From assembly GCF_018977255.1 (NCBI RefSeq), contig NW_024704752.1:16988001-17052000 (forward strand): a stretch of DNA of 64,000 nt. The letters are read 5' to 3'. Each line of letters begins with the position of its first letter. Within the stretch, counting starts at the first letter, position 1. The translations under genes and the position numbers were made by a program. This document shows positions 1 through 30,729 of the stretch, one piece after another. The notes beneath the pieces were generated by a model. The model ran no database searches and was not told where the DNA came from. It saw only the letters and a program-made list of their open reading frames with translations. This stretch comes from Callorhinchus milii (Eukaryota).

Positions 1-774
1 CCCTCCATTTCTGGGCAAATCTGGGGGCACTGCAGATGGGGAAAAGCCACTTGCATTCCAGAATGTCTCTATTTAGTTTAGTGGAGTCGTAAATTTGGAC
101 CAGCCTACAAGCCATGTCAAAGCTGCGTGACCAAGCAATACTGCCTGGGTAATCCTTTGAATTAGCTGATTCAACAAGTGAAATTCTCAAAACATAATGT
201 AATATGTAGCACGGAAAACATCAAGACCAAAGGTCCTTTACCTTTACAGCAAGTATTCTGAGAGTGGGGTTGATGTGATTGCGTGCTTTTTTGCAGCTCT
301 AAAGCATCCAGATCATTATTGACATTTTTTAAAAAAAAACATAAGGAGAGCTCTAAATGTATTGCCCTTGACGTCTATTTTGTAGAATTCTAAATAAGTA
401 GGGAGAAATTCCACTTAGATCTAGATTTACTCTTTTAACATAACATTTCAGAGTGATCAGAATTTGTCAAACGCTTAAACACAGTCATCAAATTTGAAGC
501 CTTTTTAAGAACTACAAAAAATGGGCTTCAGATTTAAAATTGATTTTAATAATTTTGTCAAAATCAGCCCATGACTGCTTTGTTAATAGCGTAAATTGAG
601 ACCCAGGAGGAATATTACAACAACAACTTGCATTTATATAGTACGCTTCATGCAGAGTAGCGTCCCGGAGCGCTTACCCTAAAGATATGTGATAAATATT
701 TTGCGGGATATGTTGAGCTTAGTACGCATCTTTGGGTTGATGAAAAGGAATTGGAATTGGGTTTTCTTTTGCAG

Positions 775-1731
775 ATAAGAGAGATAAGGAAAGCAGTCAA
801 AGACTCTGACACCGGAGAAGAGAAAATTACAATTGGTCATCACATTCATGATCGCGGTCATGTTATTGAAAGATCCAAAAATGAAAAATCAGGGGTTTCG
901 GAAGTGAATCAGGAATTTGTCAACGTAGATGAAAGTAAGGTTTATTTGAAATAGACATTTTAAGTCCATTTTGAAAGATACAGCAGCATGTATGCCAGAG
1001 AAAAATAGTTTTTAATCTTTTACCAGGAGGAAAAAAAAGTCCTGTTTGTTTCTCTACTCATTGTAGTCAGTGTTACAGGACTGGTATTTCTTGTGCAAAT
1101 ATCTTCCATTGGACAGTATTTGTTTGGTGATAAACTAGTACAGGGCAGATACCTGAATGCTACCGTCAATTACTTGCTTTGGTGAATGTTTATGACTGTT
1201 ATGTGGAAGATCTCTATTTAAGATTGAGATTTTGCCTGCATTTTGTCAGTAACATTATTTTTGCGATTAAAAGATGAAGCAGATGCCTTTGATCAAGAAT
1301 GGGAAAGTGGGGTGGCAAATTGGAGGAGCAGTGGACTATTTGCACAACCTTCTCGCACTCGTGTAAATAAGGGCCTTGAACCTGGAGCAAAAAGGTAGAT
1401 TTTTTTACAAATTATTTTTCTCCTAAGCAAACCTGAATAATAATTTCATTAGAAATGCAAGAGTTCTATCGGCTACATGTGTCTCGACTCACTAACATTT
1501 GCCAATTAAAATTGTGATTTGTAAGAAATAAGACTGACACACGATGATTCATTTTTCAGGGAGAAGTCTCTTCCCCGAAGATCCCTTCAAGGGTTGAATA
1601 ATAACACGCGTGGGAATATGAGTGAGATGGTTCAGGGAAGCGCATGTGAACTGCAAAACAGAAACACGTGTGGGAAGCCACAGAGGAGCCAATGTGAGAG
1701 GGAACGTGGGAACACGCGGCCATCTTGCTAG
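775..1731 (+). CDS. MLF1: Myeloid leukemia factor 1, last three coding exons (5' part lies outside the window)
   Basis: Exons 775-934 (IREIRKAVKDSDTGEEKITIGHHIHDRGHVIERSKNEKSGVSEVNQEFVNVDE), 1274-1394 (EADAFDQEWES...) and 1560-1731 (stop TAG 1729-1731). AG/GT boundaries and phases are consistent. The IGHHIHDR.H and NQEF.N..E..A.AFD.EW motifs are MLF-family, and the gene lies upstream of GFM1 as in human. Confidence 0.9.
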
Positions 1732-8500: not shown

Positions 8501-11500
8501 GGTTGCGACATCTGAATGTCCTGAGATTTCCGATGTAATCTGTCTTAAATTTTTAAAAAACAAGGGCAGCATTTCTTTGCAGCTCAGCTGACTCTGTGAA
8601 GTTATTTGTTAATTTGCACTTACTATAATACCACATTAAGAATAGAATGCACACCACTGTGTCCTTCTATGACTTATTAATAAATATTTGATCAGCAGTA
8701 TTTTGAAATCAGTGAGAATAGTGGTAAAAGGATGTGCCCTTTGCTCATTGTTCTTCCTTTGATTTGCTCAGGCTGGCCGATTTGGACAGTTAACGTACAT
8801 TCGAGTGTATCAGGGTATGCTTAAAAAGAGTGAATATATCTACAACACACGAACTGCAAAGAGGATCAGAGTCCAGCGTTTAGTCCGAATGCATGCTGAT
8901 CAGATGGAGGTACAGCTTCTAGCTGATCGCACTTCATATTTTTCTTCCCCCTCCCGCCCGCTGCCCACATTTTGGTAGATGGGATCTTTTTGTCTTATAA
9001 TCAGTCCGTCCAACTCCAAATGTACATTTGTTTTATGATTGAGTCATTTCTGGACGAAATGCGAACCCGACATAAAAGAGGCAAAAAAGCAAAATGAATT
9101 GTGTTGTTGTTTTGCCAAACAGCTTTGCTTCGTGTGTAAAGGTGATCCTAAACATTCCGTTCTTGCTCTCCTTGGCCTTATTTTGAATGAAGTCTCTCCA
9201 CAGACTTCTCTTCCCTGCTCTCCTCACTCAACCTTTCCCTACACATAAACTCCCCCACTCACAGTCACGGCCACCCACTCGATTTGGTGATCACCCGGGG
9301 CCTCAGTGTCTCGGATGTCACTATTACCGACAAGGCCATCTCCGACCACTACTTCATCTCCTTCACCACCTCCACCCCCCTCCCCACCTCCACCAGACCC
9401 ACCACCATCTTCTACCGCCCTTGGAAGAAGTTACCCCCACAATCCCTAACCGATGCCTTGGAGTCCTCTGAACTCCTCTCCCTCTGGCCTTCAACCCTCA
9501 CCGACCCCTCTTCTCCTCTCTCCCTCCTCCACAATATCCTCTCCTCCACACTCAATACTCTTGCCCCCATCACTTCCCGCACTGTCTCCTACTCCCGCTC
9601 CTCCCCCTGGTACACCACCCACCTCCGCTCACTGAAATGCCAGGTGCGGGCTGCTGAGCGCACCTTTGTCAAATCCGGCTTAACGGTCCACCGACAAATC
9701 TGGCTGGACCTCCTCAAAATTTACCGCTCCACTCTAGCCTCGGCCAAGTCGTCCTTCTACTCCAGGATAATCCTGGAGGCGAAGAACAACCCCAGGCTAC
9801 TGTTTTCCACCACATCCCGACTCCTCCGTCCCCCCCGCCACCCCGCGCAGGTCATCTCCTCCAACCTTCACTGCGAGGAGATGCTGGATTTCCTTGAATC
9901 CAAGATCAAGGGAATCCGCTCCGCGGTCACTTCCCCTCCAACTTCCACCCACCACCCACCCCTTCCCTCCCACACTCCGACTCCTACCCATCCTCCCCTA
10001 CACACCTTCGTACCCGTTTCCCCACCCTCTGTCACTGAACTCATCCTATCCCTAAAACCAACCACCTGCTCCCTTGACCCCATCCCCACTCCACTCCTTA
10101 TCTCCCAGCTCCATTTTCTTGCCCCACACATCACTGACATCATAAACCTGTCCCTCTCCTCTGGCTCTGTCCCCATTCCATTAAAAACTGCCATCATCAC
10201 GCCCACCCTGAAAAAACCCTCCCTTGATGCGTCGCAGCTATCAAGCTACCGGCCCATCTCCAACCTCCCCTTTCTCTCCAAGGTCTTGGAAAGAGTTGTC
10301 GCCTCCCAACTGCGCTCTTTCCTCTCCACCCATTCTCTTTTTGAACCCCTTCAGTCAGGTTTCCGTGCTGCTCATAGCACAGAAACTGCCCTGGTCAAGG
10401 TCACCAATGATATCCTGACCATCTGTGACCAGGGCTCCCTCTGTCTCCTCGTCCTCCTCGACCTATCGGCAGCATTCGATACGGTCGACCACACTATCCT
10501 ACTCCACCGCTTGTCCTCCCACCTCAACCTTCAAGGCACTGTCCTTGAATGGTTTAGGTCGTACCTTTCTCACCGTCTTCACTTCGTCTCAACGAATGGC
10601 TTCTCCTCCACCCCCCGTACTGTCTCATGTGGTGTCCCTCAGGGCTCTGTCCTCGGTCCCCTCCTCTTCACCCTCTATATGCTCCCCCTTGGTGACATCA
10701 TCCGCAAACATGGGGTTAACTTCCACATGTATGCGGATGACACCCAACTCTACCTTTCCTCCTCTACTCTCAACTCCACGACCACCGATGTCCTGACAGC
10801 CTGCCTGTCCGACATCGAGTCCTGGACGAGAGACAACTTTCTTCAGCTCAACGTGCAAAAAACCGAGGCCCTCCTGATTGGCTCACGTCAGCGCCTCCGC
10901 ACCTCAGGCGCTGACACCATCAGCATCCAAGGCTGCACTCTCCACCTCTCAAAGCCAGTCAGGAACCTCGGCGTTTTGTTCGACCCTGAGCTGTCCTTTC
11001 TCCCTCACATCCGCACCACAACTGGCACCGCCTTCCATCACCTCCGGAATATCGCCAGATTACGGCACTACCTCACCCCTCACGCTGCTGAAACCCTGGT
11101 TCACGCCTTTGTCACCTCAAGGCTGGACTATGGGAACTCTCTCCTCGCCGGCCTTCCCGGCACCTCCCTCCACAAGCTGCAGGTCATTCAGAACTCTGCA
11201 GCTCGTGTACTGTCCCGCACCAGGCTTCGGGACCACATCACTCCCACCCTCGCTCGCCTCCACTGGCTCCCCATCCCCCAGAGGATTGATTTCAAGATCC
11301 TCATCCTCACCTACAAGGCCATTCACGGCCTTGCTCCCTCCTACCTCTCCAACCTACTATCCCCCTACCTACCTGCCCGTACCCTCCGTTCCTCTGGCTC
11401 CGGTCTGCTCCACGTCCCCCGCCCCAACCGCCCTACTATCGGTGGTCGGGCCTTCAGCCTCTCAGCCCCGAGGCTCTGGAACTCCATCCCCCAGTGCCTT

Positions 11501-14500
11501 CGCCTTGCTTCCTCCCTTTCCTCCTTCAAGGCCGGTCTCAAAACCTTTCTCTTTGACCGTGCCTTCAGCTCCCCTCTCGACTCTCTTCCTCCTCCTCGCT
11601 CCCTCCCTTCCCTCCCCTCACCCTGACCATTTCCCCCCTCCTCTCTCCCTCCCTTCCCTCCCCTCACCCTGACCATTTCCCCCTCCTCTCTCCCTCCCTT
11701 CCCTCCCCTCACCCTGACCATTTCCCCCCTGCTCGGGTCATGACCCAACTGTGCAGCGCCTTGGGACGTCCTCCTGACGTGAAAGGCGCTCTATAAATGG
11801 AATCTTGTTGTTGTTGTTGTTGTTGTTGAAGCCCAAAGCAAATTTTGGAATCACTATTTTATCTCTTCAGCCTTTTGGATTTGATGTCGGCTCGACTTTC
11901 ATTTTTTTTTAATCCACTCTGTCGCTTTTTTTCTGAGCCTGAGTGAAATTTCACCCCCTCCCCATCCCATTGCCAGTCCTTGTTTTATTCTTACTGTTTA
12001 TTTCCACCCTCTCTGAACAAGAGCTCTGCTTTCTCTTTGGGATGCTGATTGGCTTACTGTGGACTTCCAGCATTTCTGTTTTGCATTTCTGGTGCCAGAC
12101 ATTTTCTTTGATTTTATAAAATATTCAAAAGAATGAATACAAAGTTGATGACTCTAGTGTAGCCTACCTTAATAATATATAATAATAATGTTTACATTTA
12201 ATTATAGTGCTTTATCATGTACTCGAGACATTTCAAAGGACTTCACAGGATTTTACTGTGAAGTGCGATGATTTTGTAACTATAGATATAATTGTGCATT
12301 TACAATTCTGTTTTTTTTAAAATTAAATATTGAATTGACTTCCTCACATTTACAACTACATTTGAGGTAATTCGGCTGTGTCATAATATAGGTATAACAT
12401 TAAAATTGTATCAAAGGGAAGCCTCATATATGAAAGTGTAACACTGTAGATGTAGATGTTATTTAGTTTTCTAACTCATAAATGCTTATAAATACTTGAG
12501 AGTTTGACTTGTTAATCATTTGGTTTATTTATAACTTTGTATTTGCTGTATTTTATTAATCCACGAGTGTTTGTGAGATATTACTGCGCGCAATTGACTG
12601 CCGCGTTTCACCCACAGAATATACAGTCAATTCAGTTTACAGTATATTCTGTGAAGTGCTTTGAGATGTCTCAAAGATGTAATAAGGCCCTATATCAAAT
12701 GTAAGGATTATTATTATTATTTCCATAAACAGCATTTTATTTTGAATTGACATATAGTTTGATTTGCTGCACATGGCATGTCAATTTTGGAAACAACGAT
12801 TAAATAATTAATTAGAATCATTTGGCTTTTCAGTCTGTTCCCAGTGTGTTCATCAAAAGCATTTTTTGAGGGAGAAGATAGGTTTGAAAGGGGTTAAGTC
12901 TATTAACTTTGTTTATATAAAAGCTTACTTTTCTTGTATTTTTTCCATGTAGGATGTTGAGGAAGTGTATACTGGCGATATCTGTGCCTTGTTTGGGATT
13001 GATTGTGCTAGTGGTGACACATTTACTGCTAAAGCCCTCACCCACCTATCAATGGTAAGAAAAAGAACATTGCATAACAACATTTATAATAATAAAAATA
13101 ACAAAAAGACTGCTTTTTTAAAAAAAAAGATATTGGCTGTTATGAGGACTTCATTCCTAATCAAGCAAGAATAATAAACTGGTACAGCTGGTTTTGAGGC
13201 AGGAGAAAGTAAAGACATGTAAAAGCATATAGCAAGAATTTCACAGGCATGTAAAACTTCAAAACATAAAATGATTCCACTAAGAAAAGGGTACAGCAGC
13301 AGACCATTGCAAAATAACGTTGCAGTCTATCTGGCAAGATGATAACATAAAAAGTCTGATTCCACTGCCTCCCCCGGTTAGTCTGTTCCACATACTCATC
13401 TCCCCGGTAAAATAATGAAATCCGAACTGTCCCTTCACCTTCCCCCTCCTCTGCCTGACTCCATGTGCTTGTTCCCGCACAAAATTGACAGAAAAAACTG
13501 CAATCCTTAGCCTGTCCAAGAGGTGGGGTGGGCCATTTTGGGGGGGAAAAATGTATGTGAAAGTTATATACTATTCAGCAGATTATTAGAGCTACATTGG
13601 AGAGGTGAGGATTACAGGAGCTTATGTGCAAATTACCAGTGGAGCTGTAAAATGTGGAGAGAAGAAATCTCTTGTTCATCATAGTTGACTCCAGTTGATT
13701 AGAAATCTGTGCTTCTTTAACGTTTGTTCATAATGAAAATGCCCCGAAGCGGTTGTAAACGATAAAGGTAATTTTAGTAAAAGCAGGAACTTTATGTGTG
13801 GAAATTTGTAACAGCAACTGGAGCAGAGAAAAATAGGTGCTGTGTAGCAACAGCTTTCATGAGGATCAACTATGTGCCCAGGTGACTTTGCTGCTAAAAT
13901 ATCCAGACATTTTCTGAGATAAAGAATAATAAATGGGGCAATATGGTTCATATTTTCTAACTCCTATGCCCTTAGTTGCTGCCTCAGCCTCTGCATTTCA
14001 CTGCGAAAAATAGTATTTAATTTCAACAGAGTAAGAATGAGTATTAGTGGGCTGCCTAGAAGGCTGAATGGATTCATTTAATGCATGATTTAATCATGGG
14101 AATGTCCCACTTTCATCATAGGTCAGCTTCACCTTAGCAAGGATCCCGATGGCCCATTGCTGTTCTTCTTGTGTGTTAAAATGAACTTGATTGGATTGGG
14201 TGGCCTTTTGTAATTCACTGTATAATCTCCCAAAGTAAGAGTCGCTGTTCGGATGATGTACCTGAAAACTGTCTGCAGTCTGCAGAACTGTGGGGGGTGG
14301 GGGAATTCAGGAGGTCCTATAGTTTTATGAAAGAACACTGCAGCTATAAAAATACCTTCAATTCCTAAATTTAACTCTTAACTGGAGTTGTCGTTGTGTT
14401 GAAGTCCTATGGCTGTGAACCCTTGTTTGTGAGTGATTCTGTAACCACTGCACCTTTTCATTAAAAAGCTAAAGGTGCATTGCTGCTAAAGTCTATTTAG

Positions 14501-17500
14501 CTGCAAATATTGCATCACTGAACATCTGGACAGCACTTTTCAATAGTGATAACTAGGTTGACATTGGGCTGCAAAATTAAGCAAGTATTTTCTCCTGCAC
14601 TTGTTGCTTGCAACCGTCTAGCAACATTCTAGCTTGCTGAACACAGAACAAAGATCAAACCTTGCACCTTTGTGACTCATTTTCCTTTGGACTGCTTATT
14701 TTGGTCAATTTATATATTTTTAAAAAATCAATTGTATTGCATTTCGAGGGGGCAAATATGCCATGTCACCAGTGGATGCTGATTAAGAATATTGACAGTT
14801 TAACGCCCTCCTCGCCGGTCTCCCATCCACTACCATCCGTAAAATCCAAATCATTCAAAACTCTGCCGCCCGCATTCTCACCCGCACCAAACTCCGCTCC
14901 CCGATCACCCCAGTCCTGGCCAGACTGCACTGGCTGCCTATCCCAGAGAGGAACAATTTTAAGATCCTCACCCTTGTATACAAGTCCCTACACTCCTCTG
15001 CACCCCCGACCTCTCTGACCTCCTCTCTCCTCAAAACAGTACCCGTTGCCTTCGTTCCTCCGGGTCTGGCCTCCTCCTCGTCCCCCGTGTCCTCCGCTCC
15101 ACCCTTGGCGGCCGTGCCTTCAGCCACTGCGCCCCGAGGCTCTGGAACTGCCTTCCTCACTCCCTTCCCCTCGCCCCCTCTCTTCCTATTTTCAGGTCTC
15201 TGCTGAAGACTTTTTTTTCGACCGCGCCTTTGGTCACCTTCCTCCCCCTCCCCTTGGCTCGGCCCCGGGATCCGTTACTGTAAAGTGCTCTGAGATGCTG
15301 TCCGACGTGGAGGGCACTCTATATATCCAAGTTGTTGTTAATCAGTTGTTACACTTTATCATGTCTACGCTCTCGAAGACTCGATAAAGCGCTATATCAA
15401 ATGCACAGTATATTATTATTAGGCATTGCACATGAGGAAATTAATTTCCATTTTGTCTCTGTGTGGTACCTCTGTCAGATAGCCTCAGAAATTTGATCTT
15501 GGTAGGAATCATAGACATTAACTGTGTCCTGATATTGCAAAGCAACACATCACTGCAATGGTAAACAGTAACTATCATCCACCTTTATCATTTAATTTTC
15601 CATTGGAAGCCAGAAAAGTTAAATATATTACTGAATTAATTTTTTTTGTTAAGGTAGGAATTTTTAAATCAAAGTCAAATTGATTTGTGCAAATCAGTAT
15701 TTAATTAAAATTAAATTGAATAGTTACACCTCTTATCAGCAACAACATAACCAGATGGAAAATTGCTCGCATTTGAAAAGTGATTAAAAATTGGTAACTC
15801 TTAGAGAATTGCTAACTTTTATTGACTTCACAGCTGTTTCATCTCCTGTTAAACTGACACTGCGAAAGAGTGTTAAACTTACTCTACGAATGTGAACAGG
15901 GTTCACTGTGATTGACAGGAGAACCCCACATGGAAAGCGTAACAAATGTACTTTAGATTGATTTGATTGTTTTAAGTTACTGTATTTTAAAATGTTAGTT
16001 ACTGTGACAGATCGGCAGTAAACTGGTGAGAGCCTCATTTCTGTGCTTCTGAGGTGCAATTAAGTAAAAGAAAAACTTACAATATTTGCCGGTTTTTGAA
16101 TATTATCTCGAACGTATTATATGGATATTTAAACTATCTGCTTTTCCTTTTTTCCTGCCATCCAGGAATCTATTCATGTCCCTGAGCCTGTGATATCAGT
16201 ATCAATAAAACCTACCAATAAGGTAAGTCGAGGCCAGATCCTTTCTAAAAGGTGTCTTCTTCCCCCAACATTGAATGTTACTGTTTTCGCCCACAAACAT
16301 GCTGCACTTCGCTACACCTCAGTATATCCCGTGAAGAGCTTTGAGACATCTCAACGACGTGATAAATGCGAGTATTATCTGGTTTACAGGGATTAAATAA
16401 AAAAAAAGAGAAAGCTTTGTTGTTGCATGATGACCTTTTGATCGCAAAGCCAAAGTCAGTACCAAAAAGTGATTTGAGATAAGACAGGTAACAAGTGTCC
16501 AAAGATAGATATTCCGACTGTGTGCGTGGGCTCACGTTTGGTCTGACCCAGCGGGAGGAATAGTGAGAGAAGTGCTGTCTGTTAATCACTTTCAAACCAA
16601 TAACAGGACGGATAGAGAGAGATACAAACAGAGAGAGGTACAACAACAACGAGATTACATTTGTATAGCTCCTTTCACGTCGGGAGGACGTCCCAAGGCG
16701 CTGGACAGTGACAGCATTTGTGGTTTAGAAATCGAGAAAATGTAAATGTGTATTCTATTCTGTTTCAGAATGATTTGGATAAATTTTCCAAAGGAATTGG
16801 TAGATTTACACGTGAGGATCCCACGTTTAGAATATTTTACGACCCCGAGAGCAGAGAGACGATTGTATCTGGAATGGGAGAATTACACTTGGAAATTTAT
16901 GCACAGGTACCACATTCAGTCTTTTATTCTTTTACTCTTTATATTCTGAATTTGTGCAGTTTGATTACTGAACTCTTTATGTGTTAACTATATCAGTGTT
17001 TCAGAAGTTTAAAATACCTTTTAATTTGAGATATCTAGGGCTTACATAATATGACTTCAGAACAGTGACGTGATAGCAACCATTTATTTCATTTTAAGTG
17101 ATCAGTTTAAGGAAAACTGCTTTGTACGTTTCATGCACAGAAATGCTATCAAACTTGTAGTACTAATTTATTTTAATTTCCAAGTTGGGGAAAGAAAAGT
17201 TTTTCTCGAGTGTCTGATGTTGAATCACCATGATTGAGTACAACATTTGATTTTAATGTTCCTCATATACATTCTTTGTAGCAACCCACTTTGTTGTTTA
17301 GGGCTGCGATGGTGTAAATTGACACGGTTTCCTTTAACCTGATTTGAATAAATGGTTTGCTGCCACTATCTTGGTTAGTTCAAATCAAACCATTTTTGTA
17401 GAACTTGCAAGGGTGAAAAAATGATAGTCCTGCCTCTCCCCAATAAAGATTTGTGTGTTTCACTAAGAGTAGATTCTTGAAGCAGCAGTTTATCTTGTGT

Positions 17501-20500
17501 TGTTTAGACCAGACGATTCCTGACTTCATCTCTAAAGGAAATGATGAGTATGAAATATATTTGATGTAAAGTACCATTTTGTGTCTCCCGTGAGCTATTT
17601 GCTTATCATCAACTCCAGGCAGTAAAAAGTGAGAGCGTTAGGTTATGCTGAATGGGCCAATCTTTCACAAAAGTTTATGACTGATGAGCCATGTTATTGA
17701 GAAAAGCTACCAAATCAAACTTTTTTTGATTTGAATGGTAACTGAAAATTTACATTGGTTTCTAAACAAATAGACAAATGTTGCTGTGATTATCTATGGA
17801 TACTTATTGACAACAAAAGTCACTAAGTTCTGGTACAGGACACCAACTTTGAATCCTGCTCAGTGTTCAGCTGTCTTTTCCTCAAGGATATGCTTTATCT
17901 TGACCAATTGGTATTGGCTGAGCACATCTTCATTTATTTGTTCGATGTTATGAAAGTATCTGTTGTAAACTTTCCTTGACGGGTTTGAAGAAAGCAGACC
18001 TGTGCGCACCTAATTTGTGTTTAAAAATTATGTAATTTATATAACATTCAGAGACTCGAGAAAGAATACAATTGCCCGTGTATAATGGGAAAACCGAAAG
18101 TTGCCTTCAGAGAAACAATATCCGTACCTGTCCCGTAAGTATAGTTTTATTCCTATAAATTAAGTTAAATTGTTATTTTTTTAAATGTACTAAAGTACAT
18201 TTCAGTACTAAAAACAATTGTTGTAAGAAGAATGGAAATACACATTTTTTTTAGATGAAGGAGTTTCTTTTTAAAAGTATTTATTGGCCTAATCGTTTCC
18301 TCCAGGCCTCCAAACAGCTCGGCTATTCTGTCACCTACTTATTTTAAGATGCTATCTAGTGACACGTCTTTGTTTCCAAATGTTCTGGTTTGCGGTTTAG
18401 ATTGCGGTGCACTGGGGCTGCAAAATTGTAGCTGATGTTGAGTGAAATACATCTTTAGCAAAAACATTACCTAAAGCATATGCTTGTCTAATCATATTCT
18501 GGATGACTTTGCATGAATGATTCTTTGTATTGCCCTTGAACAGGACAGTTCTAAAGAATTGTTCAGTTACATAGTTCTTTTGCCAAAACATGAATCGCAA
18601 TTCAGTGTGGGTAATGGAATATATATCTTTTGTGCTTTACTTTCATTTGATCATGTACTGTACTGTACTGCAGGCCAAGCAAGGCAAAGATCATTCTACG
18701 GCCACGTCATGGGCCAAATTTTAGTGAGTTTTGTTGACATTATTTGCAGAAAAAAATGTATGGATTAATCTGCTTTTTAGTAAACGATGCAATCTTGAAT
18801 GACTGAAGCATTCATTGATTATGATTGATCCTCCACCTGCACGGATTAGTGAAAAATTAATGGAGATGGGCAACTCAAACTTCTGTTTTTGAGAACATTT
18901 ATAGAATTGTGCTTACAATAAAAATAAGGGTATTTTGAATGCATTTCTTTATTGATGGTTAGCAATAAAACAATTAGCAATAATAGTACAGCATGTGTGT
19001 TGAGAATATTCGTAGTTTTAGTAATGTGACATTGCTGTAGTTCACTGACTAATCTACTGTTGCATACCATTTGGCTATTTATTTTATGATGATACTCTGC
19101 AACCTTTACACACCACATTTGAAGCCGCGAGTGTTAGCTGGAAGTTTGCATTCAGTTATATCATTGTAGTAAAGTTCTTTTTGAGAGGTTGAGTTATTTT
19201 TATATCCTACAATTGTAATATACATTCTGAGTAACTGACGTTTTATGGGTTGTTGCCGCTCAGATCATAGCAGATCCTTCTTCCATAGCTGACCCTTCGA
19301 CCTTTTCGACTCCAGACCCTTCAACGAGATTTTCATGTTCAGGCACACAATGGTAATTCAGATTCAGTGGTAGATTTGGATACCAGATCACTTCGACAAA
19401 GCAAGTGACTATTTCCTATTCAGAGAAAATGTATTACTGGCATGTAATTGATGCTGGTAAAGTAACTGATTACCTTTAAAGGAAATTCTGTGGCCGCTAG
19501 AAATGGATTAACAATACCTGTGTCGGTATCTCGTGCAGAAGAACGACAAAGATGAAATCGAGGTATTTATCATTCCTTATCTGAGGGATTGGAAAGCCAT
19601 TGTTTAATTAATTATATTAATGATATGAAAGAATTGGCAAGCAAAAGTACAAAAGTAATATTTTAAATGTTGCTCACCTGTTGGTTCATTTTCTGTAAAC
19701 GGGCCATGTTATAGACTAGGCGTTCAGTGGACTTTTCCCACATGATATAACTCGCACCAATCGTAGCCAAGTGCCAGAAAGGCATCATTTCGGAATCTAT
19801 CAATCCAAATTTACCTGAGCAGGGACGAAGAAAAGACGATAAAGAAAATCAAACTCGGAAATTATCTTACACTTCAAATAATTTAGTTTCACAAAAATAC
19901 TCCTATTATTGTAACTTTAAATCATGCTGAACGGTTATCGTTGCTTACTGCTACGTGGCGCAGTAAACTTGAAGCTTCATACCAGGAATATTTGTCGCAA
20001 ATGCAGGAATCTCCTGCTTCATTATCTTCAGGTAAAACTGAAGATCTTTCCTCGCCAGGTCTTTCTGGTATTGTTTACTTGTGTCGCAGTTTACATTTGT
20101 GTATGGTCTTGAGTTCTTTTTGTTGAAGATTACAATAGCTGTACAGTTGCCAATAACCTAGTGCAAGAAATAATTATTATAATTTTACAATTAGTCCATC
20201 CAGTTTTAGCTTTAGCCTTTATATCATTGAGTGGTTATCCCTTTATATCACTCTCATGTTTTTAGCATGTTTAATCATGTTTGGCAGAACAGTGAATGAT
20301 TAACTTTTTTCTACCAAAAATGTGTTATCAAAGAAGAGAATGTACAACAACTTGAGTTTATATGGCACCTATCACACAGGACAGCATCTCAGACGTCTTC
20401 GTAATGATTGAACTCGACGCTCATTATAATATAATGTAAAATAAAAAAGGCTTCTTCTTTGACATAAAATTTGGTACAAACACTTGTAGGTACCATGGTA

Positions 20501-23500
20501 TTGATGTGGCTATTTGATTTTCATACTTACATTTGTAGAGCTGTCTTTATTATCCACTTCAAATTGCAGATGGTGCTTGACTCCTAAATCTGGAATCACC
20601 TGTTGAAAAGAACATTCAACATCATCCGGCAAAAAGTATAATAATAATAATCCTTGCATTTGATTTAGTGTTTTTCACATCTTCTAGACATCTCAAAGCA
20701 TTTCACAGAATATACTGGAAAGTGAATTGACGATATTTGTGGGTGAAACGCGGCAGCCAATTGCGCACAGCAGCGTCCCACAAACAGTCATGGATTGAAG
20801 TGACCAATTTATTATTGGGTTTTTTCTTGAGGGATTTTTATCAGGCGTGTGGAGTAAGGAAACTTGCCCAAGGTTTCACCCTGCTGGGAATCGAACCCAG
20901 GATTCTCGCTTGTTAGGCAAATGTTAGTAATTATTCAAATTATGTTCATTATTCAGTAATTATTCAAATTATGGTTTTAAATTATTGCATTCAACTTATT
21001 TCAAATTGTTATATTCAACAATTATAGCAAATTATTGTTTTTTGATGATTATTTTAATCCTAAAAATTGTATTTACAATTTACGGTGCATTATGTTCGCG
21101 ATTGAGGAAACAAATATCAGGTTCGTTTTAGCAGTAAGTTCATTACAGTTTCAAAACAGTGATACAATAATCCTTGTATAATTTTATAACATGAACACAT
21201 CGTTATAACATTGAGGTCTAATTTCTAATACTTTCTAATACATTTGTGCATTAAGTGTGAGGATAATTGGATCTCCTACAAATACACAGAAACTGCATTT
21301 TCAAGTAAATTCTAAGAAGCTCTTTGAGACATTTCGTCAGCGTGATAAAACTACAGCAAATGACTATTAGTTTATTATTGTTATAACCTCATGTTTGTGA
21401 AACTTCACGTCCAGCTAATCACTAATCCCGAGATCAAAAAAGGCCAGCAAACAAAAAAAATGGCTGTTTCCTGCTTGTTTTTTTTTGAGATATTCATTTC
21501 ACGTAGCACCCTTACAATCTGCAAATTACGGCTACTTCCATACCATCACTTCAGACTATATTTGAACATATTTCCAAAAGATGAAAGTCAGTGTGCTTAA
21601 CCCACTGTTCCAATGATTCTCTAACACTGAAATGTTTTTATGAAAGAAAGATTTTTGTGAAATTGTGCGGTGGAAAATGTTTGAACTGATAACTGATTCA
21701 TTCAGTAACATTTGGTTTCATTCTTAAGATGTTGTTTGAAACTGAAATTTTTAATGCTTAAGGTTTGAAACAATGTAGAAAGTTCTTCGATGTCAAGTGG
21801 CGTGGATTAGAATTATAAAATGGGTTTTGTACTGGATATACAATTTAACCCATGTGGAAATCAAAGCATTTGGACTTTTTTCCAATTCTTCAACTCTTAG
21901 TAAAACTAAGGTGGATCAAGTGCAGATATCCAGTTTAACTGACTTTGAACTGAATAGCTGTAAGCTTTAAATATTTGTAACCAATAGTTTTCCATATTTG
22001 CTATCAATCTTTCATTAAGTTAAAAACAAGAAACTACTGTTGAATTACTGACTGCGTAGGCTAAAACAGAAACCAGAAAATACAATGTAAACTTCTTTCG
22101 TTAAAGTATGATTATCGATGTTAAAAAAAAAAATTGTTTCTAACCCACTATGTTGAAGTATAACAAGCTTTTATGTGTTCAGGTTCCAATTCAGTGAGGT
22201 TCTAATAAACAAAAGCGTTGGCATCTCCCTGTTTATGTGACACGCATTTTAATTCTGTGGTGCAACAATTCTGCTTGCTTTTTGAAATGTTCAACATAAA
22301 TTGTGTTTTTCAACTTGGTAATCTTATTGTAAAGAGGGCGAAGAGCAACAGTGAATTTTCTATTTTAACTGTGCACAGTGTATGAAATAGTGTGTATTAG
22401 TTAGAACACAATTAAGTCGGTCATAATCGATACATTGTTAGGATACGAACGTTTAAGTTTTGCTCACTTTTTAAGTGTTCCTCTTTGGGGTTTTTTTTAA
22501 AAAAAAGGTTCTTACCTCGATGTAATATTTCGTCAGTTCATGTAGTGAGTAAACTGCATTGGGAGATCCATCTTGATAGTTCAGATAATGTACAGCCACT
22601 TTTGCAGCTAGTTCAGCATTGCGAAATGCCAGCTTTGATTTTGAGACACTGGAATAGTTCATAATTTTTGTTTCTCCATGTAATAATGGTAGGAAACAAG
22701 CAACAAAGCACAAAGCCACGTAGTACATGTTTGAGTGTACAAGTCCAGTTGAAGGGGGAATTTTTCAAGTAATCTTTGCTTATGAGGACAGAGTCGTTTG
22801 AGTAGTTGGGTAAGGACTGCCGCTCCCTCCCAGTCTTAATGATTTTGTTTCCAGGCAATAGATGCTGAGATTGTGATGTTTTATGGACTTTATCTTTAGA
22901 ATTGAACCACACACACTATCAGACTTCTGCTTTTGCTCTGTCTCAGCTGCCAGTGATATTGCTAGGCTCTGAATGGAAGGTTGGCTTCATCTGATAATCT
23001 TGTTGTTTTGCTTCCTAAAAAGAGGTGGTTTCCTTTAACTTCTGAACTTGAGCCAAAGTTCATGTTTATAGGCTAAATTCTCAAGTGAATTTTCCATTTA
23101 TTTTATATGTTGATGTCTCACCAGTGAAAAGGACGGAAATTCACTGCACTTTCCTGTGAATTTTTACAAACTTTGCCTTTTATTAATTATATGCATTTAA
23201 TTATAAATATCTTGATGAAATATTTTGTAGTATTGTCCTTTTATTATGTAGGATAAGATTTACATAATGTTGAGTCAAGAAAGTCATTCAACCTATTAAA
23301 GATTTGTGGTTATTCCAGATATTCAAACTTTTACTTGACTGAAATGGTTTTATGTGCACATCAGATTATTTCAACTTTTTGAGAGCGGATTAATTTCAAA
23401 ATTAGTAACAAAAGGATGGAATTATTAGTCGTACTAAGTTCTCATGCTGCAGTAGAAAGCATGCAAAATTAGTATAAGAAATAAGGACATCCTAACCAAT

Positions 23501-26500
23501 TACTTCACCATGTTTATAACTGGTTTTGCTCTTTCAAACTACCCAAAACTAGTTGCGTACTGTGGCAATTTTGCAAAACATCCGTCTGTAAATGGTAAGC
23601 AATTGTTATTTTTTTTAAAAAAGTGAAGTACATTAGATAGGGCTGAACACATTTTGTTTCATTTGAGGGTCTTGAATGGATGAATTAATTGGAGGAGATA
23701 AATTTTGACAAATACAATAGGCCAAGTTGGCTCTTTACTAGATTTCTCTTGTCCTTTGTTGATTCTGGTTTACAAAGAGAAGTAGGAGATAGCTTCCAGT
23801 GCGTGATGATGTGGTTTCATCAATATATTTTGCCCCAATCTCCAAACAACAATCCCATTCCTATAATTCTTTTTATTGTTTATAACTGACTTCCGTAAAA
23901 CTTGCCCAAAATATTCAGTGCATAACAGGAAGTTCAGCTGTTCCCTTTTTTTCTCTGTACAACTGAGAAAAACAAAGAGTTTGGTTTTGAACTTCTTGGA
24001 TTTGACACACTTTGATGTGTGTTCATTTATTAGTATAAAAACTAATTTTTGATTCTGAAGAAGCGAGTAAGTTTATTTGCATTCCTCTCATGGTGAATTA
24101 GTTGGATACCGACTAATTCATATTCAACGTGCTGATACATACCATTCCCGGCCTAATGTGATTCACATTCCTTTTATAATGGATTCAGTTGGTGAGGTGG
24201 GTACCAGCAGCAGTAAACTTGCTGATGCGTAGCCCGTTCACAGCTTAATTTAATCTGCATTCCTTTTATAATGGAATCTATTGAGGAGGTGGGTACCGGC
24301 AGCATTAATAGATACTGTAGTTAAGTCACAATTGAACAGAAGTTTTAACCCTACAGTATTCTGGGCTCTGGCTCTTGTTGGTCTGCCATTTTCATTGCAA
24401 GGAGAGTTCAGCAGCTGAGAACTAACTGTTCATGAGATTGCAGAAGGGTAAATCTTTGAAAAATCATGTTTGAGAGCTCCAGTTCTGTCTGCCAAATCTT
24501 CCTCAAAGTTTGGGGCTGCACAGCACAAATAAGCAATTTAATAAAAATCACTGGCTTGTCTGTTACTTAGCTGTTGTTGCTATTGAGCTCTCAGGACGAT
24601 TCCAAGTATATTCATTTTTATAAGGATAGGTCATTTATCTGTAGCCGCCTAGCAATTGCTTGACCCACATCATGCTAATTTTTTTAAAAACTCAAAGGTA
24701 TTTGTATATTATGGGTTAGATAAAGAACTGAAGTGTAATAATTGTAATTAACTTGTCTGCCGTTTCCTTTTGCCATTTTTTTCCAGCTTTGAATTTACCC
24801 ACAAGAAGCAGTCTGGTGGTGCAGGCCAGTATGGCAAGGTTATTGGTGTGCTGGAGCCTCTGGAGCCGGAAGACTGCACAAAGCTGGAATTTGTTGATCA
24901 AACTGTAGGAACAAATGTACCAAAGCAGTTTGTGCCAGCCATTGAGAAGGTAAAGGAGCTAAACAATACAGCTTTTGCCTCCTAAGCCTCAGATGTGAAA
25001 GAACAATGCGATATATAATGCGCTGCCCAGGTCCACACCATATCTATCCTGACACGAGAACAAAAAGTCAACACTTTTTATGTTGCTCAACAATGGCATC
25101 TCATTGTAATGAGCTTATGCTGTAGACCTTGCAATTGGTGGTGTTCCCCCCCACTCCACCCCCCCAAAAAAAAACGTTTGGCTGAAATTATAAGCAAGAC
25201 ATCTATGTAGTCTCAAAGAAAAACAGTTGTTTTGCATTGCTTCCAATTGCTTTAACTTACCTTGATGAGCCATCTGTGCTCTTCAGTCAGGATGTCATTG
25301 AATTGAAATAAGGAGTGTGTGTGAACTTATATTTGTTTTTAAAATGTTTTGGTCTACATTACTTTCACAGGGTTTCCTTGAGGCTTGTGAAAAAGGCCCT
25401 CTTACAGGTCATAAGATCTCTGGTGTACGTTTTGTATTGCAAGATGGTGCCAATCATATGGTGGACTCCAATGAAATTTCCTTCATCAGAGCTGGGGAAG
25501 GTGCTGTTAAACAAGGTTTGTAAACTCGTTGTAGATTAGAATTGCAAACAATGTTCACAGTTCTTCCCATCTGGCCAAGAAAAGAAACGTACAAAATTTC
25601 CGCACAAAACCTCGCTAAATGTAATACAAACTATACAGACAATGCGAATGTTTAAAACTACAAATCTTCTTGCAGACATACTAGAAGCACTTGAATTTGT
25701 GCATTTTTGCGTGTCGCAAAAGTTATTGAAAATAATTTCCCTTGAAAATATTTAAAATAAATGTTATTATACTTTAAAAAATTTCACATTATGTTGCAGA
25801 GACTAGGCGCCTTGGGACGTCCTCTCAACGTGAAAGGCGCTATACAAATGTAATGTTTTTTAGGAAAAATCAATTATGTTAAATGAATGTCGTAAAATAT
25901 TTTCCAGTCTATTAAACTCTAGCTATGAAAAATGAGAGTGGATCAATCCAGGTAGTATTGTCACCATTACAGTGTTTTGGTGTAAATCTATCAAAGCAGT
26001 AGTTACTTATTGATTTGTTTTGCATCCCTCAGTTATGGAAAAGGCCCATGTGGTTATTCTGGAGCCAGTCATGTCAGTAGAGGTCGTAGCACCGATTGAG
26101 TTTCAGGGAACAGTCATTGCTGGAATCAATCGTCGTCAAGGTATCATCACTGGTCAGGATGGAACAGATGAATACTTTACACTTTACTCTGATGTATGTA
26201 TTAAGTTTGTTCAGTTTTATATCATTGAAAGTGTCCCCGTACTATCACAACTTTGCTTATAATTGAAGTTTCATCCACAAAATATGGTGTACGGTCAATC
26301 TTTACAGGATATTCTGTGAAGCGCTTTGAGATATCTCAACGGCGCGATAAGGCGCTATAATAATAATAATCCTTGCATTTGATACCTAACCCTAAGTGCT
26401 GTTCTATACCAAATGCAAAGATTATTATTATAAATTATGCAAAATATTGTTTTTGTTTGAGATGTGTTTGCTTCCGGTATAACTGACTCTTTCTACCATC

Positions 26501-26963: not shown

Positions 26964-27864
26964 AGATCATTCCTTACTCGGCTGCTTTTGGGGACTTTCA
27001 GTACCACATTAGACAAATGGATGATCGTATTCAGCATACATGTGTGACTGCAAAAAATAAATTGGTTGGGCAGCACAAACAGACCACTCTGCAGTTATGT
27101 CCAATTTTATCAAAGAAAAACTATGTCAGAAATAGCAAACTCGTGCAAAATCTGCAATCAGAAACTGAAAGACATCACCTTGCACTCAGCAAATCATTGG
27201 GGGCTAGTCCAGATGCAGACCATTGAACATCATCAGGAAGACTGATGTTTATTCATCTGAGCACTTTGGCCTCAAAGCAACTTGATTTCATTTTATCACA
27301 CCCAATGTCTGTTGAAAAGTCATTAAGGAATAACAGAAAATCCACAGCATTTTCAGGAATTCGTCTACAAATGTTAATGTCAACTTCAAGTAACCTCATA
27401 CTTGATTTAGCTATTAGCTTAATGTGCCCCTAATCTTCTCATTTATCAGCATTGTACAGAATTCTTGATCCAAGCAAAGTCTATTTATATATGAAATCTT
27501 GATCCAGACACGAACTATACCGTAGATGTTCTGTACTTTTTAATGTTCTTTTTATGCACTGAAACATCAATTACAACGGTGTACTTCCTTCTTTTTTGAA
27601 CAGAGTTTTATTTCCACTAACCATATGATTCACTGTATCATTACAATTGCCCTTATATTTATTGTAAATTCTAAAAATAAGATTTGTATTTTTAAAATCA
27701 TTTAAGATAATTTTCTGTGTTTCAAATGCGATACTGTCAATTTTATCAGATCATGTAATTTGTTGCTTTTCGCCCAGTCAGTTCAGTATATTCTGTGAAG
27801 AGGTTTGAGACATCTCAACGACGTGAAAAGGCACTATATCAAATGCAAGGATTATGATTTTCAG

Positions 27865-28075
27865 TTCTGGTTTCCAGTGTAATGATGTCTGCTGTTGTCA
27901 GTTAAGGCATTAAACCAAGGCCCCATCTGCATATTCAGGTGAATGTTAAAAATCTGGTGACATTATTCAAAAAGAGAAGGGAGTAATTCCTGGTCTGGCC
28001 AACATTCTCTGAAATAAATTGCTCATCACTTCATGACTGTGTATGCCCAGTTTGGCTGCTGTGTAGCCTTTAAAT
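27865..28075 (+). mobile_element. Ancient Deu-domain SINE relic (SacSINE1/AmnSINE1-like)
   Basis: TTAAACCAAGGCCCCATCTGC...TCAGGTGAATGTTAAAAATC...GGGAGTAATTCCTGGTCTGGCCAACATT resembles the recalled Deu-domain consensus. Confidence 0.6.
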
Positions 28076-29762
28076 ACACGATCACTTCACTTTACAGCAG
28101 TTACCTTTGTGACCTTTCAACATTATAGATGATATATCCAATGTAACTATTATTAGGACTTGATTTGTATGCCCTACTTACTCATATTATCTTGCTCCAA
28201 ATGGAAGAAAAGATCAAGTTATTTCTTTACCCTGTATGTAAGATAATAAGCATGACTTTGGGTACAGCAGTCAGCACTTTGTCCTTTCCTTTCAGCACTT
28301 GGGTCTCAATTAAGTTCAAAATGATGGCAAACTCCACGGGATTTCGAGAGGTATGTCCCATTGATCTTCATGAGTTTGTGATTTTCATGATTTGTTTTCA
28401 TGGAAGAACTGTCATATCTGAGGATGTTATATTCAAGAACTAAATACTTATGTAATGGTAAATTAACAGTATAGTAGCTGTTGCTAATTTTGTTTCTACA
28501 CTTTGACGAAGGACAGCCTGAAGATTAAAAAACTGATGAAATTTATCGCTCTTGCTAAATATCTGAAGTTGACAAAAACTGTACCTTTTAAAATGGGGAA
28601 AGAGAGTAATACAGAAGTTTTACAATATCCTTTCTAAAAAAGAAAGTTTAGAGCAATTCAAGCTTTTTGAACCACAAGATTTGAGAGACCAGTGACTCAT
28701 TTTGCTGAGTTTTTACACAAAGGAAAAGGCAGACAAAAGGACAGGAAGGTATTTTTCCATGACGCCCATCCTTGTGGATTGTAGGTTAGATTTTTTTTAA
28801 TTTCGGTGCCAAGTTATGAATAATTTTAGGCTGTTAACTTGCACTGTTTGGAAACTAATTGAAAACACCACAGTTTTGCATGCAAAGAGTATAGAGCGAT
28901 GCAAGCTTGTTTTATGTTGGAATCCAAGTCACCAGAAAACAAAGTCTTCCATCCTTGTTGGAATCAGCATTCTGAGTATATTCATCTTAAAATTTTAAAT
29001 TATCTTAAAAAAATATTTATCTTTAAATTTTAAGATTTTAAAATCTTAAACTGGAAAATTTAATTCTATTCATCTCTAGAATCCTATGTAAGTTTCTTGC
29101 TTAGTTTTGTTGAAAAATTAACTTGGGGTTCTCTTTTTGGATGTTAAATCAATCGACACCAGGGATTTTCTCTTATTGTTTATAGCAAAATAAATAATAC
29201 AATTGCACTTTTCCACTTTGCAAAGACGTGCTGTAATTCAGCACAGCGAAAAAATATAAAAAGCTGCACACGGTGCACGGATACGTTTGGGCCGAAGCCC
29301 AAATCTGGTAGCTCTGTCCTTTTTTTTTATGACCACGGCCTGTGACTGATGCTGTTCTGGTACTTTCTGTTCTTTGTAACCTGTTAAAAGATGTTGGCTT
29401 TCACAGTAGAGGGCACGCAAAGCCGGTCGGTGATCACAGAGTTCTTTCACTCAATAGCATTATACGCAACACGATTCAGTGCGTGCGCAAAGATCGCCAC
29501 ACCCCAGGCAGTAAATACTGCGGTGGTGTTGTCGATGACACCGCCTGTGAGAATGAAGTTTAATGGAACTGAGGATTCAGTTATTCCACACGGAGCACGT
29601 GGACGTCCAGAAGAGGTGAAAAGCGCTGCGTCAAAGGCAAGGAATATTATAATATGGAGGACGACGAAAGCTCCGCACGGGGAATAATATGGGACCCGGG
29701 TGGGCTTCCGCACGGAGTCATTCTCAAAGAACACAATCTCGAGAGATAATGTAACAGAAACC

Positions 29763-30454
29763 GAGGGGGAGTGAGGGGGGGTTGTGAGGAAGAGAGGGGT
29801 TGGGGGTGAGGGGGGGGTATTTGGGGAGTCAGAAGGAGGGCAGTTGGAGGTGGGGTTGGGGGAGGGAGGGGGGTTGGGGGTGAGGATGGTTGGGGGGGAG
29901 AGGGGGTTGGGGGGGAAAGGATGGTTGGGGGGGGAGAGGGGGTTGGGGGAGAGGGGGTTGGGGGGGAGAGGATGGTTGGGGGGAGAGGGGGTTGGGGGAG
30001 AGGGGGTTGGGGGGGAGAGGATGGTTGGGGGGGAGAGGGGGTTGGGGGAGAGGGGGTTGGGGGAGGGGGTTGGGGGGGAGAGGATGGTTGGGGGGGAGAG
30101 GGGGTTGGGGGGGAGAGGGTTGGGGAGAGGGGTTGGGGGGAGAGGATGGTTGGGGGAGAGGATGGTTGGGGGGAGGGGGGTTGGGGGGGAGGAGTTGGGG
30201 GGAGGGGGTTGGGGAGGGAGGGGGTTGGGGGAGGGGGTTGGGGGGAGAGGATGGTTGGGGGGGAGAGGGGGTTGGGGGGAGAGGGTTGGGGGAGAGGGGG
30301 TTGGGGGGAGAGGATGGTTGGGGGAGAGGATGGTTGGGGGAGAGGATGGTTGGGGGGAGGGGGTTGGGGGGAGGAGTTGGGGGGAGGGGGGTTGGGGGAG
30401 AGGATGGTTGGGGGGGAGGGGGTTGGGGGGGAGGAGTTGGGGGGAGAGGAGGGG
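29763..30454 (+). repeat. Almost C-free G-rich minisatellite upstream of MFSD1
   Basis: Alternating GGGGTTGGGGGAGA and GGATGGTTGGGGGGGAGA units over about 690 bp. Confidence 0.92.
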
Positions 30455-30519
30455 TTTGTTCCAGTGAAGAACAACACGATCTCACACCCAATACGACAAC
30501 ACTACAACAACACCGAGGG

Positions 30520-30729
30520 ATCAGTGGGCGCTTCACCTGCTGACGCCCCCGTCCCCGCCCGCGTCTCCAGGAAGTGGCTCTGCCGTCTCCAGGAAGTGAC
30601 GCGAGGCCGGGAGGCGGGGCCGCGGGGGGCGGGGGTGGGAGGGAGGGAGGGAGGGAGGGAGCGGCCCTCCCTCAACGGGCGGGTCATCACGTGAGTCAGT
30701 CACAGGACCCGGGAGGAGCGGAGCGAGCG
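30520..30729 (+). promoter_or_regulatory. MFSD1 CpG-island promoter with tandem ETS sites and CLEAR-like E-box
   Basis: GTCTCCAGGAAGTG twice (30563-30576, 30585-30598), GC boxes, and TCACGTGA at 30687-30694, about 35 nt before the ATG. Confidence 0.7.

What the first reader, a model, noticed from the sequence alone, without database searches (positions are those of the whole stretch)
19260..22728. Single nested latexin-family gene: LXN position, RARRES1 sequence, secretory signal
Seen: a six-exon antisense gene in GFM1 intron 13 with an N-terminal hydrophobic signal ([19 protein letters not shown]), N-glycosylation sequons (NYS, NCT), paired cysteines and an EEGSA tail. No second family member is recognisable in the 3.7 kb between GFM1 and MFSD1. 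Knowledge: in human, cytosolic signal-less LXN is nested in this GFM1 intron and membrane-anchored RARRES1 lies between GFM1 and MFSD1. The RP..NV.C, WYP..PL...YHC and EEGSA motifs are RARRES1-type. Inference: this may be the pre-duplication ancestor, a secreted RARRES1-like carboxypeptidase-inhibitor-fold protein, with the nested copy later becoming cytosolic latexin in bony vertebrates.
Basis: partly seen in the sequence, partly recalled or inferred. Interest (0 to 1): 0.75.

Follow-up and report, generated by a model that had tools for sequence, protein, structure and literature searches.

The report
Secreted ancestral-type latexin in elephant shark
The elephant shark has one spliced latexin-family gene, lying inside an intron of GFM1, whose protein is predicted to be secreted and likely represents the unduplicated form that gave rise to latexin and RARRES1 in bony vertebrates; the gene is already annotated, so this is a modest correction to a family history.

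Summary
A six-exon antisense gene (22728-19260) lies in GFM1 intron 13. Its 270-aa product equals the Callorhinchus milii latexin entry; a one-residue variant is named 'latexin precursor' in RefSeq. Contigs of 4 of 4 runs join all five introns. Three genome searches found no credible second copy, and the 3.77 kb GFM1-MFSD1 gap holds no remnant. Nine sharks and rays each returned one gene. With hagfish as root, the best tree puts the cartilaginous-fish gene outside bony LXN+RARRES1 (93/92), but AU tests do not reject orthology to RARRES1 (p=0.07) or LXN (p=0.09). Pro-orthologue is the best reading (about 0.65). Corrections: the duplication predates the ray-finned/lobe-finned split. Several 'RARRES1-type' residues are also in hagfish, so they are ancestral. 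The acidic EGSG tail fits a glycosaminoglycan attachment motif, repeated 5-18 times in four sharks (untested). One latexin and no TIG1 in Chondrichthyes was tabulated in 2009; the reversed polarity was not found in print. Modest interest.

The parts
22516..22728 (-). Coding part of exon 1: ATG, predicted signal peptide (residues 1-18), helix 1 and first strand of cystatin-like domain 1
22729..22959 (-). 5' untranslated part of exon 1 (contigs reach 22936-22959; no ATG inside)
   Evidence: contigs cannot show the true start
20531..20599 (-). Exon 2 (69 nt)
19983..20157 (-). Exon 3 (175 nt): C99/C118 hairpin, linker helix, Ile151-Pro152
19678..19814 (-). Exon 4 (137 nt): helix of cystatin-like domain 2
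19518..19580 (-). Exon 5 (63 nt): ends in the hairpin with His214 and Gln219, aligned to latexin His185 and Gln190
19260..19415 (-). Coding part of exon 6: C224/C242 hairpin and disordered acidic tail with one EGSG; stop at 19260
18726..19259 (-). 3' untranslated region (AATAAA at 19083 and 18953; contigs end at 18726-18944)
18135..24786 (+). Host intron: GFM1 intron 13
   Evidence: human LXN is in GFM1 intron 13 (bioRxiv 10.1101/212191)
26964..30729 (.). GFM1-MFSD1 gap without a second family member; partly GFM1 3' UTR and a G-rich simple repeat

Best explanation
This is the only latexin-family gene found in the elephant shark genome, spliced from GFM1 intron 13; its protein is predicted to be secreted and to inhibit extracellular zinc carboxypeptidases, and it is likely the pro-orthologue of both LXN and RARRES1. 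Shown: gene structure, splicing, position, no second copy in three searches, and a predicted double-cystatin latexin fold. Inferred mechanism: the 18-residue signal takes the chain into the secretory pathway, where two hairpin disulfides (C99-C118, C224-C242) would form and N24 and possibly N98 would be glycosylated. The folded core would cover the active-site funnel of an A/B-type metallocarboxypeptidase as human latexin does on CPA4, and the disordered acidic tail may carry a glycosaminoglycan chain or phosphate. Inferred history: the jawed-vertebrate ancestor had one secreted gene in this intron, and a local duplication on the bony-vertebrate stem put a copy between GFM1 and MFSD1. That copy (RARRES1/OCX-32) kept the ancestral features. 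The nested copy (LXN) changed fast and lost the second disulfide and the tail; it lost the signal only later, in lobe-finned or tetrapod lines. Ray-finned fishes appear to have lost the RARRES1 copy.
For: Single locus in the genome with PF06907, a caecilian RARRES1 and a sturgeon latexin as queries; empty gap. Nine elasmobranch species each returned one gene named latexin and no second paralogue appeared. Coelacanth has both types (P0051, P0194). 43-row tree (LG+C20+F+G4): bony LXN+RARRES1 form one side against chondrichthyans and hagfish at 93/92. The same arrangement is best under LG, JTT and WAG on 31 rows, c-ELW 0.76, 0.55, 0.78. Ray-finned latexins fall with lobe-finned LXN at 100/100, and a duplication after the ray-finned split is rejected, p=0.0006. 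The same short signal ending in LPL-x-x-G occurs in this protein, sharks, coelacanth RARRES1 and gar, sturgeon and reedfish LXN, so the common ancestor had it whichever way the tree is rooted. LXN stem 0.38 against RARRES1 stem 0.002 in the constrained tree. AF2 model pLDDT 82, Foldseek to human latexin 2bo9_B E 1.9e-19, TM 0.89 by target. Latexin and recombinant OCX-32 are both reported carboxypeptidase inhibitors (PMC8144736).
Against: The key branch is not starred (93/92) and neither rival is rejected in any AU test (p 0.07-0.37). The hagfish root is very long (about 2.1 changes per column, 26% identity). For the window's own protein, quartet patterns for pre-duplication and for RARRES1 orthology are level (6:6, 3:3, 4:5). 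With hagfish as outgroup, faster LXN evolution is significant in only 1 of 4 pairs. The free tree leaves RARRES1 paraphyletic (monophyly not rejected, p=0.165). None of 3 hagfish models shows a signal or EGS tail. No lamprey and no mammalian LXN row was available. Gene position is known only for this genome and human; other sharks could not be examined. Protein searches are word- or cluster-limited, so a missed shark paralogue is possible. Secretion, disulfides and inhibition are untested.
Confidence: 0.65

Rival explanations
1. The duplication is older than jawed vertebrates and this gene is the RARRES1 orthologue; cartilaginous fishes lost LXN, and the RARRES1 sequence came to lie in the intron by conversion or replacement.
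For: The window's protein matches the RARRES1 state at 7 of 8 diagnostic columns and the LXN state at none. Identity is 44% to coelacanth RARRES1 and 34% to coelacanth LXN. Not rejected by AU (p=0.070; 0.18-0.25). Quartet counts tie for the window's protein.
Against: It sits at the LXN position, so a conversion or move plus a loss is needed. Four of the 8 diagnostic states are also in hagfish. Shark quartets favour the outside position in 5 of 6 and tie in 1. Lower likelihood under every model.
Confidence: 0.17
2. The duplication is older than jawed vertebrates and this gene is the strict LXN orthologue that simply kept ancestral features; RARRES1 was lost in cartilaginous fishes, as it appears to have been in ray-finned fishes.
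For: Same intron and strand relation as human LXN. Databases name the shark genes latexin. PMC2784779 counts Chondrichthyes as having latexin. Not rejected (p=0.092; 0.08-0.37). Loss of the outer copy has a likely precedent in ray-finned fishes.
Against: Fewest supporting quartet patterns (0-3 per quartet). No LXN-clade diagnostic residue is shared (0 of 8). Needs one more loss.
Confidence: 0.15
3. The N-terminal segment is an uncleaved membrane anchor, as predicted for human RARRES1, so the protein works at the cell surface and not as a soluble inhibitor.
For: Human RARRES1 was predicted to be a type II membrane protein (PMC3430302) and axolotl Tig1 is discussed as a cell-surface factor (PMC8894484).
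Against: The hydrophobic run is short: the best 19-residue average is 1.53, and it ends in a small-residue site conserved across fishes. RefSeq names the protein a precursor. Chicken OCX-32 is a uterine-fluid and eggshell protein, and a released human RARRES1 form exists.
Confidence: 0.1

Closest known systems
C. milii 'latexin precursor' (NP_001279868.1, AFK11131.1; UniProt A0A4W3JYA7, K4G0E6)
   Same: This very gene: P0001 is identical to the spliced window product and P0123 differs at one residue.
   Different: The entries give two different names (latexin; retinoic acid receptor responder) and make no statement on ancestry.
Human and mouse latexin (LXN; PF06907; PDB 2BO9, 1WNH)
   Same: Nested in GFM1 intron 13; same fold; Ile-Pro loop and His185/Gln190/Glu191 positions kept.
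   Different: Human LXN has no predicted signal peptide and is cytosolic with some leaderless secretion (PMC6435711), and has no disulfide (PMC2212644). LXN-clade rows have Trp at the C224 position and no EGS tail.
RARRES1/TIG1 and avian ovocalyxin-32
   Same: N-terminal hydrophobic segment (14 of 14 rows), four core cysteines, acidic Gly-Ser tail, 39-44% identity to coelacanth, lungfish, caecilian and bird rows such as Nyctibius and Rhea.
   Different: Lies outside GFM1 in tetrapods (flanked by GFM1 and MFSD1 per PMC8144736; the exact human order is recalled). The best tree does not place this gene in the clade.
Ray-finned fish 'latexin' (sturgeon, paddlefish, gar, reedfish, teleosts)
   Same: Homologous short signal; no RARRES1-type partner retrieved.
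   Different: Belongs to the derived LXN clade (100/100), lacks the C224 cysteine and tail, and has a longer N-terminal spacer.

Membership tests
Latexin family (PF06907, MEROPS I47) | Profile match above the curated cut-off | tested here: met
   3 of 6 single exons pass the 24.1-bit cut-off, 5 of 6 match
Latexin family (PF06907, MEROPS I47) | Two cystatin-like domains packed through helices with a linker helix | tested here: met
   AF2 model pTM 0.77; Foldseek TM 0.89 by target, rmsd 2.2-2.3 to 2bo9_B and 1wnh; predicted, not solved
Latexin family (PF06907, MEROPS I47) | Conserved Ile-Pro loop and the His...Gln-Glu hairpin | tested here: met
   I151, P152, Q219, E220 invariant in 10 of 10 rows and H214 in at least 90%, aligned to human latexin. 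That the hairpin contacts the enzyme is recalled; the structure paper was not held.
Latexin family (PF06907, MEROPS I47) | Inhibits A/B-type metallocarboxypeptidases | not testable with these tools
   Needs a recombinant assay
LXN orthologues of bony vertebrates | Antisense position in GFM1 intron 13 | tested here: met
LXN orthologues of bony vertebrates | Clade-diagnostic residues (Trp at 224, Ser at 218, Gly at 235 and others) | tested here: not met
   0 of 8 columns
LXN orthologues of bony vertebrates | Placement inside or sister to the LXN clade | tested here: inconclusive
   Best tree excludes it; AU p=0.092, 0.08-0.37
RARRES1/OCX-32 orthologues | N-terminal signal or anchor, four core cysteines, acidic Gly-Ser tail | tested here: met
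   hydropathy and alignment only, SignalP was not available
RARRES1/OCX-32 orthologues | Position between GFM1 and MFSD1 | tested here: not met
   Gene is intronic and the gap is empty
RARRES1/OCX-32 orthologues | Placement inside or sister to the RARRES1 clade | tested here: inconclusive
   Chondrichthyans+RARRES1 p=0.070; window protein alone with RARRES1 rejected, p=9e-5
Proteoglycan core proteins | Ser-Gly with nearby acidic residues in a disordered region (E/D-G/A-S-G) | tested here: met
   1 motif here, 5-18 in four sharks, 0 in 5 batoids; tail pLDDT under 50; motif from PMC8418075
Proteoglycan core proteins | A glycosaminoglycan chain is actually attached | not testable with these tools
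   The cited review warns that motifs alone are ambiguous

The most novel reading that the evidence does not exclude
The latexin family began as a secreted, disulfide-bonded carboxypeptidase inhibitor with a glycosaminoglycan-bearing tail, encoded inside GFM1 intron 13. Cartilaginous fishes still have that undivided gene, and sharks expanded the tail into a proteoglycan-like array. Cytosolic latexin is the derived form, built in steps (disulfide and tail lost on the bony stem, signal lost after the ray-finned split), and RARRES1/OCX-32 is the conservative copy that left the intron. This reverses the published order, in which latexin is old and TIG1 is a tetrapod novelty, and would explain why a cytosolic protein inhibits secreted enzymes.
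Probability: 0.3. Interest if true: 0.45.

Novelty: new member of a known kind. Interest (0 to 1): 0.3.

Why it matters
Mammalian latexin lacks a signal peptide although CPA4, the enzyme it binds, has one (PMC6435711), and RARRES1's topology is disputed. A secreted ancestor would explain the mismatch and gives one undivided protein with which to test which activities are old. It also corrects two published statements: TIG1 as a tetrapod novelty (PMC2784779; coelacanth and lungfish have RARRES1-type proteins and hagfish has a family member), and zebrafish Gene ID 494053, written 'ltx', used as the fish RARRES1 (PMC8144736 supplement; the ray-finned rows tested here are LXN-clade, zebrafish itself was not in the tree). 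This is ordinary duplication and divergence in a small family, of use to specialists only.

Tried and rejected
Second copy in the genome: a contig-8 match to the sturgeon query (E 0.26, two stops) was judged chance and not cut out. Window hits outside the gene had tblastn E of 0.17 or more and HMM E of 0.14 or more. An alignment query against the own genome was not run, so no chondrichthyan-tuned profile search exists. No run is on record as RNA; the spliced joints are the evidence, not depth. The 29781-30448 G-rich part of the gap was not bridged by the listed DNA contig pieces. Earlier findings of this scan: 0 by place, 0 by words. The atlas search gave only latexin and cystatin-type clusters, no new outgroup. 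Rows left out of the trees: P0066 (chimeric model), P0053 (mispredicted), Leucoraja (near Amblyraja, model without signal), Erinaceus, Aotus and most near-identical bird rows. Three aberrant tails were trimmed, the first 40 columns of four rows were masked, and 12 further rows were dropped. The latexin-CPA4 structure paper was not held, so interface residues are recalled. No complex prediction was made: no carboxypeptidase of this species was available as a single stored protein, and a textbook pair would pass by likeness. Mis-annotation or pseudogene: rejected by the open frame, spliced contigs and conservation.
Full report
Observation. Six minus-strand exons with GT-AG borders give an 813-nt open frame of 270 aa from 22728 to 19260. 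Five of 6 exons match Pfam LXN on their own. Exon 3 retrieved a 100% identical protein, P0001, named latexin of Callorhinchus milii, and the spliced product equals it. Its cluster holds NP_001279868.1 'latexin precursor', also named retinoic acid receptor responder in UniProt, which differs at one residue. Contigs of 4 of 4 runs from 2 studies (RNA guessed by the tool) join all five introns and reach 22936-22959 at the 5' end. No ATG precedes 22728 in that span and an in-frame stop lies upstream. The host intron 18135-24786 is spliced in one contig and is intron 13 of GFM1 by exon count (exon 1 inferred from its donor site). Human LXN lies in GFM1 intron 13 (bioRxiv 10.1101/212191, passages). 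The window order is MLF1, GFM1, an MFS transporter read as MFSD1, then a P2Y-like receptor.

Copy number. PF06907 over the 991.5 Mb genome gave 5 matches at E up to 10, all exons of this gene. A caecilian RARRES1 gave 3 of 3 here; a sturgeon latexin gave 2 of 3 here and one chance-level match with two stops. Three profiles and tblastn with 43 proteins found nothing credible in the 3,766-bp GFM1-MFSD1 gap or elsewhere in the window. Independent contigs cover most of the gap; a G-rich repeat of about 0.7 kb is not bridged by listed pieces. Nine elasmobranch species each returned one gene named latexin. These searches are word- or cluster-limited, and no other chondrichthyan genome could be read.

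Protein. The AlphaFold2 model (10-row alignment; pLDDT 82, pTM 0.77) has two cystatin-like domains and a disordered tail from residue 247. It matches human and mouse latexin at TM 0.89 by target. C99/C118 and C224/C242 lie on successive strands, which fits two disulfides (inference; distances were not measured). I151-P152, H214, Q219 and E220 align with latexin I122-P123, H185, Q190 and E191. The role of the hairpin residues in binding carboxypeptidase is recalled; a critical cis-proline is mentioned in PMC8894484 (passages). The signal was judged by hydropathy and alignment only. A hydrophobic 9-mer of 2.0 or more in the first 40 residues marks 9 of 10 chondrichthyan, 9 of 11 ray-finned, 14 of 14 RARRES1, 1 of 7 lobe-finned LXN rows (a gecko model) and 0 of 3 hagfish models. 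An older coelacanth LXN model scores 1.90 and the current one starts at an internal Met. The signals of this protein, two sharks, coelacanth RARRES1 and gar, sturgeon and reedfish LXN all end in LPL-x-x-G at residue 17-18, so both paralogue lines inherited one signal.

Phylogeny. In 43 rows and 210 columns (LG+C20+F+G4, hagfish root), chondrichthyans form a group (81/64) outside all bony rows (93/92, not starred), and ray-finned and lobe-finned LXN group at 100/100. A clade of lobe-finned LXN plus RARRES1 is rejected (p=0.0006), so the duplication predates the split of bony vertebrates. No ray-finned RARRES1-type row was retrieved. Chondrichthyans+RARRES1 (p=0.070) and chondrichthyans+LXN (p=0.092) are not rejected; the window protein alone with RARRES1 is (p=9e-5). 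On 31 rows the outside position is best under LG, JTT and WAG and the rivals again survive. Of 8 columns that separate the two bony clades, the window protein has the RARRES1 state in 7; hagfish has it in 4 and the LXN state in 1. Quartet counts tie between the outside position and RARRES1 orthology for the window protein and favour the outside position in 5 of 6 shark quartets. The LXN stem is long (0.38) and the RARRES1 stem near zero, but with hagfish as outgroup the rate difference is significant in 1 of 4 pairs only. No mammalian LXN or lamprey row was available. Sequence weighs most against strict LXN orthology and position weighs against RARRES1 orthology; the pro-orthologue reading needs the fewest events. 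I give it 0.65.

Tail. The motif E/D-G/A-S-G, described as a chondroitin attachment motif in nematode glycoproteomics (PMC8418075, passages), occurs once here, 5, 7, 10 and 18 times in four sharks, in 0 of 5 batoids, 9 of 14 RARRES1 rows and 0 of 18 LXN-clade rows. Human RARRES1 is a reported chondroitin sulfate proteoglycan, but at residue 40, not in the tail, and is released as an 80-160 kDa form (PMC3430302, passages). Chicken OCX-32 is phosphorylated at serines 261 and 268 (PMC9363672, passages), a rival fate for tail serines. This is a lead, not a result.

Literature. Eight searches were run. PMC2784779 (passages) lists latexin present and TIG1 absent in Chondrichthyes, dates latexin to jawed vertebrates and TIG1 to tetrapods, and finds neither in cyclostomes. 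PMC8144736 (passages and supplement 2) treats RARRES1/OCX32 as conserved from fishes to mammals, with zebrafish 'ltx' as the fish gene and no Callorhinchus entry. PMC6435711, PMC2212644, PMC12876459, PMC10424144 and PMC9526814 were seen as passages only. None of these states that the secreted RARRES1-like form is ancestral or that the chondrichthyan gene predates the duplication. In one search none of the 25 listed papers (of 2,716) held the word latexin. The library lacks most subscription journals, the 2005 structure paper was not held, and curated gene trees could not be consulted, so novelty is not established.

Verdict. A real, already annotated gene of a known family. Interest 0.3.

Noticed in passing
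window 49648-48675, minus strand: Single-exon P2Y-like receptor (best solved match P2Y4, E 1.5e-65) whose frame switches near 49504, after the N-terminal segment: an assembly indel or a broken gene. It may be the orthologue of the human GPR79 pseudogene, which I recall lies near this locus (not checked).
   Followed up: partly
window 9191-11626, plus strand (GFM1 intron 9): 811-aa open frame with a reverse transcriptase domain (RVT_1, E 4.7e-37), LINE-like by context; similar-looking fragments near 4794-5300 and 14796-15400.
   Followed up: no
P0189, P0046, P0191, P0002, P0190: Shark proteins carry tandem repeats of about 8 residues in the tail, with up to 18 EGSG-type motifs; the sawfish has EGTG repeats instead.
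   Followed up: partly
P0069, P0177 (gecko), P0165 (coelacanth): Some lobe-finned LXN models have an upstream signal-like extension before the usual start Met; it may be real retention or a model error.
   Followed up: no
P0073, P0166 (reedfish): Two LXN-clade paralogues, one model with and one without a signal, grouping together at 100/100: a lineage-specific duplication.
   Followed up: partly
P0171, P0097, P0197 (hagfish): Hagfish have a latexin-family protein, which moves the family's origin before jawed vertebrates, against PMC2784779.
   Followed up: partly
P0066: A frog protein named RARRES1 looks by eye like a chimera of a RARRES1-type N-terminal half and an LXN-type C-terminal half, probably a fused gene model.
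   Followed up: no
window 661-951, plus strand: An MLF1 exon (PF10248, E 1.2e-21), so the MLF1-GFM1-MFSD1 order is conserved.
   Followed up: yes
window about 3000-3520 and 29775-30500: G-rich simple repeats, one in GFM1 intron 1 and one just upstream of the MFSD1 start.
   Followed up: no
window about 20640-20910: High-copy interspersed repeat in intron 1 of the latexin gene (very deep contig pile-up).
   Followed up: no
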